IMG/VR virus record: IMGVR_UViG_3300022552_000376
Origin: a virus
Strand: one strand, 5' to 3'
DNA length: 26,618 bases
Shown: piece after piece, positions 6 to 21,678 of the stretch
How positions within the stretch are numbered: position 1 is the first letter of the stretch
Layout: every line of letters begins with the position of its first letter
Position numbers and translations under genes: made by a program
The notes under the pieces: model-generated
Databases searched by the model: none
Seen by the model: only the letters and a program-made list of their open reading frames with translations
Told to the model about the DNA's origin: nothing

Positions 6-113
6 AGGGGGGAGGGAAGAGGAAGGGGGAAGAGGAAGAGAGGGGAAGGAGAGAGGGGAGAGAGAAGAGGAGGAGGAGGAGAGGGAGAGGGAGAGAGAGG
101 GAAGAGAGGGAGG
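6..113. repeat. 108-nt pure polypurine (G/A-only) low-complexity tract
   Basis: No C or T between positions 6 and 113; contains several G3-G6 runs and GAG/GAGA iterations. Confidence 0.95.
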
Positions 114-163
114 CTCAAATTGGAGTGTATGCACAAAACTGTGCATTAACAAAACACTCTTAT

Positions 164-183
164 TTGTTCATACTTGTTCATAC
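164..183 (+). repeat. Perfect tandem repeat, 2 x TTGTTCATAC
   Basis: Copies at 164-173 and 174-183. Confidence 0.9.
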
Positions 184-267
184 TGGAAAGGTAGCACAAA
201 CCTTTCTGTGAGTGTTACTAAAATTCTCACTTTAGAACTTTTCGGATGTTTAAACTTTTCTTTCGTT

Positions 268-285
268 GAACGAATGCTTTAAATA
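268..285 (+). promoter_or_regulatory. Putative archaeal promoter (TATA box TTTAAATA)
   Basis: TTTAAATA at 278-285 with a purine-rich segment upstream; sits about 25 nt before the GC-rich structured region starts (~309). A second TATA-like TTTAAACT lies at 249-256. Confidence 0.6.
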
Positions 286-307: not shown

Positions 308-664
308 GATGAGCGGGGGTGGAGGGGGACGCACCCCCGTGAGGCAGGCGAGGTGGCGACGAGGCGAACCCAGCCTCGTAGGCAAGGTGATGAACTCCTC
401 CCTTCAGGGTAAGGAGTGATTGCCATCGCTCTTGAGAGGGAGCGGGTAGATGCCACCCGACCTGTGAGGTGTTCCTACCCGCTGTGAGTGATATGGTGGT
501 AGATGCACTTCCCCTGTGGAAGTTTCCTACCACCAGAGTGTGTGGATGCTCTCCCAGTTGAGGAGATTCCCACACACGAAAGAAGAGCGGAGAGCAAGTT
601 TCTGAAACACAGGTTAGCGGATGCTCTCAACAACTGCTCCATCCTCATTTTCCCTTTATTTTTT
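308..664 (+). ncRNA. Putative structured non-coding RNA (or long structured 5' leader), unknown family
   Basis: GC-rich island between a TATA box and a T-rich tract. Stems: 314-321/332-339, 359-365/373-379, 381-385/420-424 (k-turn), 427-433/438-444 (GAGA tetraloop, 2 G-U pairs), 441-449/475-483, 494-502/527-535, 538-545/570-577, 590-596/622-628; possible end-to-end pairing 308-316/634-643. Confidence 0.7.
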
Positions 665-1674: not shown

Positions 1675-1710
1675 CTTCTCCTCTCTTTTTCTTTCTTTTC
1701 TTCCACTTCC
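1675..1710 (+). terminator. Pyrimidine-rich intergenic tract, putative terminator
   Basis: CTTCTCCTCTCTTTTTCTTTCTTTTCTTCCACTTCC right after the stop codon. Confidence 0.55.
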
Positions 1711-1762
1711 ACATGCAAGGGTGGTGCTGTTTTGGCACTATCCCATGATGGAGGTGGGTGTG

Positions 1763-4967: not shown

Positions 4968-5588
4968 ATGAAGGATATTGTAGATGTTCATTATGGTGAG
5001 CCTAAAAGAGGATGCGGATTTCGCAAAATTTCTTCAAGGTCAAAGGTTTTCTACTACCTTTGTGGAAGTGGAATATCTCTTCCTTGTGATAGGTTACCAT
5101 ATAAGTTGGATGTGTGTCCAGTTTGTGGAAGTGGATTGAAGTTTCACAGAGGTTTTCAGTGGCTTGACTGGAGAAGATACGCAGGAGAACATAATGAATG
5201 TGAGTGTGATGAATACTGCTATGTTTGTCATCCAAGGCAAGGAGAGAGATATGGATTGATGTGGGTTGGAGAGCGGTTTTATACACCAAGGTCATTCACA
5301 CTTGAGGCAGAAAGGTTGGGTGTGAGTAAATTAGTTCCAACTCTTCCAAAAGAACTTGAGATTGGCAAGACAAAGGTTTTACTGGCACATAGGAAAGCAT
5401 GGAAAAACAGGGAGCCAGCGATATTTTATGCATTTGTGGTGAAAAGAGTGGATGTGCTTGTAAAAGCAGAGGAAGCAGATGAAGAATGGGTAGAGCGGTT
5501 GAGAGAGAAGGGAGTGAATGTGATTATTGTTGGAAGGAATGAGGAGAAGCAAATAACATTAGAGGAGGTGAGTAAGAATGAGGTGTGA
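4968..5588 (+). CDS. Cys-rich hypothetical protein (multiple Zn-binding motifs)
   Basis: RGCG, CPVC, CxC-x3-CxxC; near the C-terminus a PIP-like QITLEEV. Confidence 0.8.
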   Translation: MKDIVDVHYGEPKRGCGFRKISSRSKVFYYLCGSGISLPCDRLPYKLDVCPVCGSGLKFHRGFQWLDWRRYAGEHNECECDEYCYVCHPRQGERYGLMWVGERFYTPRSFTLEAERLGVSKLVPTLPKELEIGKTKVLLAHRKAWKNREPAIFYAFVVKRVDVLVKAEEADEEWVERLREKGVNVIIVGRNEEKQITLEEVSKNEV

Positions 5589-5922
5589 AATCTGTGGAGT
5601 GGAGTTGAAAATTGAGCATGACACTAAATTCGGTTATGTTACTTTCTATTGCCCAAACTGTTCAATTAAAAGACAGATGGAATGGATTAGGGTTGCAAGG
5701 AAATCTCGTTCTGCATATATCACAGCAACACTCCACAGTTTGGAAAGAAATGAAGATGTCTATTTGTCAGCTGTTGGAGGAGAGAGGATAACAAAGATGT
5801 TCTGGTGTGTGCATACAATCACAATTCAAGGAATTGCAGAGATTTCAAACACGACAGTGCGACGACTGAATGGAGGAGCGGTTGAAGTGGGTATTGTCCT
5901 TCACAGGAAGAAGGTGAAGTAA
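5578..5922 (+). CDS. Zn-ribbon plus Alba-like nucleic-acid-binding protein
   Basis: CEIC ... CPNC, followed by VARKSRSAYITATLHSLERNEDVYLSAVGGERITK, resembling Alba (VGKKPVMNYVLAVITQF..EVxIKARGRAISR). Confidence 0.6.
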   Translation: MRCEICGVELKIEHDTKFGYVTFYCPNCSIKRQMEWIRVARKSRSAYITATLHSLERNEDVYLSAVGGERITKMFWCVHTITIQGIAEISNTTVRRLNGGAVEVGIVLHRKKVK

Positions 5923-21218: not shown

Positions 21219-21560
21219 ATGAGGAGAGTTGCAAACTTCTTGAGGAATGTTGGTAGGAGTTTGAAGGAAGTTCTTACACACAAGAGCAAAGGATACAACG
21301 ATATGGTGATGATGGCAACAGCAATCATAAGCACAGTCGTTGTTGCAATAATCGGTGTTTACATTTCATCACAGATATGGAATACTGCGCAGTTGGACAG
21401 TTCCTCACCGTTCAACACAGCGATGAATGCTGCGATAAACATCATGAACACGACATTTCCGTTGATTGTCGTCGTTGCAATTGCTATCATAGCAGGTGTG
21501 ATAATGACATACCTACTTGGTGGGTTCGGTATTGCTGGTGGTGGTAAGAAAGGAGAATAG
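21219..21560 (+). CDS. Putative major capsid protein of spindle-shaped-virus type (hydrophobic helical hairpin with basic leader)
   Basis: Basic amphipathic ~25-aa leader, two long hydrophobic helices separated by a polar linker with an NTT sequon, short charged tail; followed by a strong hairpin/T-tract. Confidence 0.7.
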   Translation: MRRVANFLRNVGRSLKEVLTHKSKGYNDMVMMATAIISTVVVAIIGVYISSQIWNTAQLDSSSPFNTAMNAAINIMNTTFPLIVVVAIAIIAGVIMTYLLGGFGIAGGGKKGE

Positions 21561-21574
21561 GCAGTAAGACAGTG

Positions 21575-21620
21575 GAGGAGGGTCTTTTTGTCCCTCCTCA
21601 CATTCATTTTTCTATTTCTT
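21575..21620 (+). terminator. Hairpin plus pyrimidine tract after the putative capsid gene
   Basis: GAGGAGGG (21575-21582) / CCCTCCTC (21592-21599), then CATTCATTTTTCTATTTCTT. Confidence 0.7.
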
Positions 21621-21678
21621 CCATATCTTCTACATATCTACCCTCTCGTCAAACTTTTAACTTTTAGGTGATGAGAAA

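What the first reader, a model, noticed from the sequence alone, without database searches (positions are those of the whole stretch)
308..664. Candidate novel viral structured ncRNA (~340 nt) with its own promoter and terminator
This GC-rich, almost continuously pairable island sits in an otherwise purine-biased coding genome, bounded by a TATA box (278-285) and an oligo-T tract (648-664). It shows RNA-type hallmarks: G-U pairs, a GAGA tetraloop, a k-turn, a repeated internal loop and possible 5'-3' end pairing (GATGAGCGG 308-316 with CTGCTCCATC 634-643). I do not recognise it as tRNA, SRP, RNase P, a CRISPR array or a known ribozyme. It could be a sponge, scaffold, packaging RNA or regulatory leader, possibly acting with the Alba-like or basic proteins in the window (inference).
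Basis: partly seen in the sequence, partly recalled or inferred. Interest (0 to 1): 0.85.

Follow-up and report, generated by a model that had tools for sequence, protein, structure and literature searches.

The report
Conserved structured leader RNA, archaeal virus
Spindle-shaped viruses of deep-sea methane-eating archaea all begin their early-gene transcript with the same small folded RNA, found in no RNA database, onto which different strains graft 0 to 500 extra bases of folded RNA; it most likely controls whether transcription runs on into the virus's DNA-replication genes.

Summary
Real, conserved and undescribed, but the 340 nt is not the unit. The window is a close relative of ANME-1 virus PBV082 (Pletoitzamnavirus; 84% identity over 8.7 kb). 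All 44 related loci that reach far enough upstream of the next gene carry the element. The invariant part is about 70 nt (313-379) just after the predicted start: two hairpins with compensatory changes, G-U:A-C 16:0, and near-invariant loops (GGG and CCC, a probable kissing pair). The first hairpin is 27/28 identical in a virus whose neighbouring protein is only 31% identical. The k-turn hairpin is lineage-specific. Positions 425-635 are a variable insert (0-502 nt) with 0, 1 or 3 hairpins sharing one internal loop. No Rfam match. A U-tract follows, but the downstream gene and a 21-kb replication arm show no canonical promoter of their own, so the RNA is also a leader. Best reading (0.38): a cis-acting read-through/antitermination leader, working like phage HK022 put. 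Main rival (0.30): a stand-alone trans-acting small RNA. No expression data could be obtained. The scan had not noted this RNA on other DNA.

The parts
232..247 (-). Leftward BRE/TATA-like element, back to back with the main promoter (degenerate in the window, clearer in relatives)
   Evidence: Conserved position and consensus in all clades; function inferred
270..285 (+). Rightward promoter: BRE-like purines and TATA box TTTAAATA (278-285); predicted start about 308
   Evidence: TATA box at 25-35 nt before the P2 core in every locus with enough DNA; only canonical intergenic TATA on the + strand of the window
313..340 (+). P2: 9-bp hairpin, 10-nt loop GRRGGGRAMG; invariant core
   Evidence: Four columns with two-sided changes, 99% paired; G-U 16, A-C 0; 27/28 identical in L169
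359..379 (+). P3: 5-7-bp hairpin, loop ending in ACCC(A); loop can pair with the GGG of P2 (kissing, inferred)
   Evidence: Four columns with two-sided changes; kept in the distant clade with a different stem
381..424 (+). P4 hairpin (394-399 with 412-417) with k-turn-like base; lineage-specific
   Evidence: C helix 5 bp in the window, 2 bp or more in 10 of 22 variants, absent in distant clade
425..635 (+). Variable insert (214 nt here; 0-502 nt in relatives): GAGA hairpin 428-443, three hairpins with a shared internal loop 442-482, 494-535, 538-577, and hairpin 590-627
636..664 (+). Conserved pyrimidine segment (636-646) and two U4 tracts (648-664): terminator-like / cleavage site
   Evidence: At least one U4 tract in 29 of 31 distinct loci; U4 tracts are the aCPSF1 signal (PMC8716108)
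683..714 (+). GNRA-capped hairpin just before the ribosome-binding site; probable 5' protector of the downstream mRNA
   Evidence: Three columns with two-sided changes; duplicated before an inserted gene in L121 and L123
727..1213 (+). RBS (727-733) and gene X (start most likely 743; basic, beta-rich, weak Pur-alpha/SSV1 A100-like fold)
   Evidence: About 60 homologues; upstream ATG at 725 is out of frame or stopped in 11 relatives; fold matches Z 3.6-4.0 only

Best explanation
A cis-acting leader RNA at the head of the early/replication transcript. Shown: conserved promoter, two covarying hairpins within 0-8 nt of the predicted start, a U-tract, then a promoter-less gene train. Inferred: P2 and P3 fold first and dock loop to loop (GGG with CCC) into a compact ~70-nt domain; this domain, alone or with the product of gene X, acts on the elongating host RNA polymerase or on aCPSF1 so that part of the transcripts run through the U-tract at 648-664 and the later internal U-tracts into the 21-kb replication arm; the rest stop at about 660 and release a 100-650-nt RNA. 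The insert is an exchangeable, self-folding module that adds protein-binding sites (repeated internal loop, k-turns) and tunes the outcome. It works like HK022 put or an N/nut pair; it is not a member of either family.
For: Core present in 44 of 44 informative loci and always directly after the TATA box; loops near-invariant across proteins of 31% identity; no other canonical intergenic TATA on the + strand although six later gaps hold 1-4 U4 tracts; function tolerates 0-502 nt between core and terminator and even an extra gene before gene X, as a distance-independent signal would; size, two-hairpin build and position match putL (about 70 nt, two stem-loops, just downstream of an early promoter, effective 10 kb away; PMC9378689); terminator read-through is documented, mechanism unknown, in the spindle-shaped virus SSV1 (PMC9608457).
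Against: No functional or expression data. Leaky internal terminators occur in 38% of Methanococcus operons (PMC10450193), so no antiterminator is strictly needed; non-canonical promoters may have been missed. Large inserts under structural selection are not required by this model. L194 and L195 keep the core but have a TATA-like box and no U4 tract after it. The kissing pair never varies, so it is untested by covariation. No RNA antiterminator is known to me in archaea.
Confidence: 0.38

Rival explanations
1. A stand-alone, abundant viral small RNA acting in trans (decoy or scaffold RNP): the P2-P3 core is the functional domain, the insert supplies multivalent protein-binding sites, and downstream genes are served by ordinary leaky termination.
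For: Own promoter and two-U4 terminator; inserts grow inside loops with stems preserved, like expansion segments (L120 vs L140); repeated internal loop with compensated stems; k-turn and K-loop motifs; TATA-like box before gene X in L194/L195.
Against: Never found apart from the head of the same operon (though loci were found through gene X); size varies sixfold among close, recombining relatives; no target complementarity found.
Confidence: 0.3
2. An autoregulatory operator: gene X protein (possible Pur-alpha-like single-strand binder) binds the purine-only P2 loop and represses its own expression, as T4 gp32 does on its leader pseudoknot (from my own knowledge).
For: Strict linkage to gene X; basic segment in the protein; top fold matches Pur-alpha and SSV1 A100 in two models.
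Against: Fold matches are at noise level (Z 3.6-4.0); up to 700 nt, a stable hairpin, or a whole extra gene can separate core and start codon.
Confidence: 0.1
3. A replication primer or origin-activating RNA (ColE1 RNAII-like), transcribed from one of two back-to-back promoters at the origin.
For: Junction between resolvase gene and replication arm; conserved divergent promoter and further hairpins at 110-230; G-rich 5' end.
Against: The virus encodes its own primase, PolB and clamp loader; no skew switch at the site; sequences left of the promoter are not conserved.
Confidence: 0.08
4. A ligand-sensing riboswitch of a new class controlling termination ahead of nucleotide-metabolism genes.
For: Conserved loops, possible pseudoknot, alternative pairing of the P2 5' strand with the pyrimidine segment; operon holds NrdD and a dUTPase/dCTP deaminase.
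Against: No compensated switch helix; variable 0-502-nt spacer; few conserved junction bases; alternative pairing is low-complexity G/pyrimidine pairing.
Confidence: 0.07
5. A DNA element (operator palindrome or single-strand hairpin), not an RNA.
For: P2 is an inverted repeat next to a promoter; both strands fold; no transcript data.
Against: G-U 16 versus A-C 0 (p = 3e-5, sequences not independent), GNRA loops, loop more conserved than outer stem, start-site position.
Confidence: 0.05

Closest known systems
Phage HK022 put RNA (putL)
   Same: About 70 nt, two stem-loops, directly downstream of an early viral promoter, ahead of a long transcript with terminators (PMC9378689).
   Different: No sequence or Rfam similarity; archaeal polymerase and aCPSF1-type U-tract termination; probable loop-loop kiss; variable inserts; activity not shown.
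conAn bipartite antiterminator (pLS20) and lambda N/nut
   Same: RNA element plus adjacent small protein gene at the start of a very long operon (PMC8191782; N/nut from my own knowledge).
   Different: In conAn the RNA lies downstream of the protein gene; gene X has no NusG-like or other family hit; no function shown.
Archaeal box C/D sRNA / k-turn RNAs
   Same: RUGAUGA motif opposite UGA forming a k-turn-like base in P4.
   Different: No D box near the 3' end, no guide segments; RUGAUG is the common RBS/start motif of this genome (about 48 copies); P4 absent in distant clade.
SRP RNA Alu domain
   Same: Two 5' hairpins with complementary loops.
   Different: Linker 15-23 nt rather than a short U-turn, no S domain motif, no hit to SRP models.
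CsrB/RsmZ-type sponge RNAs
   Same: Repeated motif-bearing hairpins in variable number.
   Different: Repeat is an internal loop, not GGA loops; present in 0-3 copies and dispensable; no partner known.

Membership tests
Any Rfam 15 family (riboswitches, SRP, RNase P, ribozymes, sRNAs) | Covariance-model match at or near gathering score | tested here: not met
   Best hits over the element 15-19 bits, E 1.6-9.6, far below cut-offs, in the window and in 13 relatives including insert-free forms
put-type RNA antiterminator | Two stem-loops, about 70 nt, just downstream of an early promoter | tested here: met
   definition from PMC9378689
put-type RNA antiterminator | Sequence similarity to put | tested here: not met
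   No match in 50,697 phage records or Rfam
put-type RNA antiterminator | Binds RNA polymerase and suppresses termination in cis | not testable with these tools
   Needs transcription assays
Standard k-turn | C helix, 3-nt bulge, tandem G.A/A.G (PMC5061560) | tested here: met
   In the window: 381-385 with 420-424, bulge 386-388
Standard k-turn | Conserved across homologues | tested here: inconclusive
   10 of 22 variants keep it with 2 bp or more of C helix; 6 lose the GA of that register; absent in distant clade
Box C/D guide sRNA | Terminal C and D boxes with D'/C' and two guide segments | tested here: not met
   Only CUGA is at 602, inside the variable insert; sR hits below 19 bits
SRP RNA | Short Alu junction plus helix 8 SRP54 motif | tested here: not met
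   Linker 15-23 nt; no helix-8-like motif
H/ACA guide RNA | Hairpins with variable guide pocket, apical k-turn and ACA tail | tested here: not met
   Internal loop is small and invariant, no apical k-turn, ACA not after each hairpin
Leader-peptide attenuator | Conserved upstream ORF | tested here: not met
   All three frames used; +1 and +2 indels among close relatives
Pletoitzamnavirus (the genome, not the RNA) | Synteny and identity with PBV082 replication arm | tested here: met
   84% over 8.7 kb, same gene order; genus described in PMC9894754
Pur-alpha/PC4-like fold (gene X) | Structural match above noise | tested here: inconclusive
   Z 4.0 (rmsd 4.0, 75 aligned) to SSV1 A100; Z 3.6 (rmsd 3.8, 81 aligned) to Pur-alpha

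The most novel reading that the evidence does not exclude
The first RNA-based processive antiterminator of archaea: a 70-nt kissing-hairpin RNA that modifies archaeal RNA polymerase or blocks aCPSF1 over 20 kb, and that doubles as a chassis on which viral strains exchange 0-500 nt of folded, protein-binding RNA cargo.
Probability: 0.22. Interest if true: 0.9.

Novelty: new variant of a known kind. Interest (0 to 1): 0.7.

Why it matters
Conserved structured RNAs are almost unknown in archaeal viruses; none turned up for this group in the papers searched. How spindle-shaped viruses read through their own terminators is open (PMC9608457), and a 70-nt element with invariant loops and a ready compensatory test makes it directly testable in laboratory archaea. 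Whatever the mechanism, an RNA with a fixed core and a hypervariable, structurally selected insert is a new family worth adding to Rfam, in viruses of the main methane-oxidising archaea.

Tried and rejected
Rfam scans, tRNA scan, phage and plasmid BLAST: nothing. Pattern scans of IMG/VR and of GTDB genomes gave only chance matches without the stems, so no cellular homologue was seen at that sensitivity; a model-based search of host genomes was not possible. The 236-aa ORF 503-1213 and the 204-aa calls in L190/L192 that run over the RNA are chance open frames (not kept in relatives). A leaderless uORF from 309 is not conserved. Resemblances recalled from memory to fluoride, c-di-AMP, TPP and guanidine-II riboswitches, iron-responsive elements, REP repeats and TIGR arrays had no support from cmscan and were dropped. 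Pairing of 636-643 with the start region (723-730) is perfect in the window but variants are not compensated. Alba identity of ORF 5578 not supported. No fold or family for gene X above noise. A second P2-like hairpin in L158 lacks a P3 partner and lies in a small ORF: left as a curiosity.

Full report
Observation. The stretch 308-647 is 57.6% GC against 40.9% for the rest, the TATA box is at 278-285 and the T-rich tract at 648-664. It folds better than all 100 shuffles (z = -4.25), but so does the opposite strand (z = -5.0). The three-hairpin block 440-580 (z = -6.4) exceeds all 111 background windows of the same genome. Rfam gives nothing near a cut-off, for the window or for 13 relatives.

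Genome. The window encodes a clamp loader, primase, PolB, dUTPase/dCTP deaminase, NrdD and a helicase and a hydrophobic virion-protein-like ORF at 21219. The gene after the element has a homologue in Methanophagales virus PBV082, with the same gene order and 84% DNA identity over 8.7 kb. [quoted passage not shown] The element sits at the head of the replicative arm, after a serine resolvase gene. The paper passages found do not mention a non-coding RNA.

Homologues. Using the downstream protein (gene X) I collected 60 loci. All 44 that extend far enough upstream carry the element; the other 16 end before or inside it. This sample is ascertained through gene X. Independent pattern scans of IMG/VR and of 185,579 GTDB genomes found only chance hits.

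Anatomy. The alignment splits the 340 nt into layers. (1) An invariant core: hairpin P2 (313-340, loop GRRGGGRAMG) and hairpin P3 (359-379, loop ending ACCC). In 28 sequences 98% of cells pair, eight columns change on both sides, 0 of 500 shuffles reach this, and slid controls fall to 41-51%. In 18 distinct P2 variants there are 16 G-U and no A-C apposition, which points to a single plus strand, that is RNA; the sequences are related, so the p-value is only a guide. P2 is 27/28 identical between the window and a virus in a Methanospirareceae MAG whose gene X is 31% identical. The GGG and CCC of the two loops can pair; the distant clade has a longer C run opposite five Gs, but the pairs never covary, so the kiss is inferred. 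(3) An insert of 0, 43, 83-87, 204-231, 363 or 502 nt, scattered over the gene X tree. The internal loop GAUGC/UUCC occurs in 0, 1 or 3 hairpins whose stems differ entirely yet stay paired. Larger inserts grow inside loops with the stems kept, and L120 carries an antisense copy of the core with mostly G-U-compatible changes. (4) A pyrimidine segment and U-tract, with at least one U4 run in 29 of 31 loci, the signal used by aCPSF1 (PMC8716108). (5) A covarying GNRA hairpin at 683-714, then the RBS and gene X, which most likely starts at 743.

Transcription unit. The TATA box lies 25-35 nt before the P2 core in every locus, so P2 starts within about 8 nt of the expected start. No TATA box lies between the U-tract and gene X except in L194/L195, and 278 is the only canonical intergenic TATA on the plus strand, while six later gaps hold U4 tracts followed at once by an RBS. 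The RNA is therefore both a terminator-bounded product and the leader of the arm (inference; non-canonical promoters cannot be excluded). No upstream ORF is conserved. A leftward BRE/TATA lies back to back with the promoter in all clades.

Mechanism. Best reading, 0.38: the core folds first and promotes or gates read-through, like HK022 putL (about 70 nt, two stem-loops, just after an early promoter, active 10 kb away; PMC9378689), possibly with gene X protein as cofactor as in conAn (PMC8191782). It explains position, loop invariance and indifference to spacer length. Against it, leaky internal terminators are common in archaea (PMC10450193) and the inserts are not needed. The rival trans-acting small RNA, 0.30, explains the inserts better and the strict position less well; the two share a released RNA and are separated by cis/trans tests. 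Autoregulation by gene X (0.10) rests on weak Pur-alpha/A100 fold matches (Z 3.6-4.0; A100 listed as a Pur-alpha repeat in PMC9608457). Primer RNA (0.08), riboswitch (0.07) and DNA element (0.05) are less likely. Shown: conservation, covariation, modularity, context.

Verdict. It belongs to no tested family and resembles known viral leader RNAs in design, hence new variant of a known kind; interest 0.7.

Noticed in passing
window 110-247, minus strand: Leftward promoter-like element followed by two hairpins and then a long pyrimidine tract (complement of the GA tract at 1-113): a possible second small RNA of about 100 nt; z = -3.95; sequence differs between lineages.
   Followed up: partly
L120:640-740: The 502-nt insert holds an antisense copy of the core (P2 5' strand and loop, P3 5' side) that would unfold it; changes are mostly G-U compatible.
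   Followed up: partly
L120 and L140, insert 3' half: A K-loop-like CUGA ... GUGAUGA motif and long rod-like stems in the large inserts; L156 has another rod-like insert.
   Followed up: no
window 1675-1760 and 1973-2000: Further pyrimidine tract plus GCAA hairpin, and a conserved hairpin that covers the RBS of ORF 2006 and resembles P4; kept in many relatives.
   Followed up: partly
L121 and L123, after the U-tract: A small Cys-rich gene with its own copy of the hairpin and RBS is inserted between the RNA and gene X.
   Followed up: no
L158:2217-2237: Second P2-like hairpin (loop AGGGGAAG) about 1 kb downstream, without a P3 partner.
   Followed up: partly
L169, L190-L195: A GC-rich clade of apparently smaller ANME-1 elements with gene X, a STIV B116-like gene and only the P2-P3 core; L194/L195 have a TATA-like box instead of the U-tract.
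   Followed up: partly
window 5578-5922: Zn-finger N-terminus with a C-terminal part that looks Alba-like by eye; no Pfam or PDB sequence support.
   Followed up: partly
window 21573-21640: Strong hairpin and long pyrimidine tract after the probable capsid protein gene: likely the main terminator of the arm.
   Followed up: no
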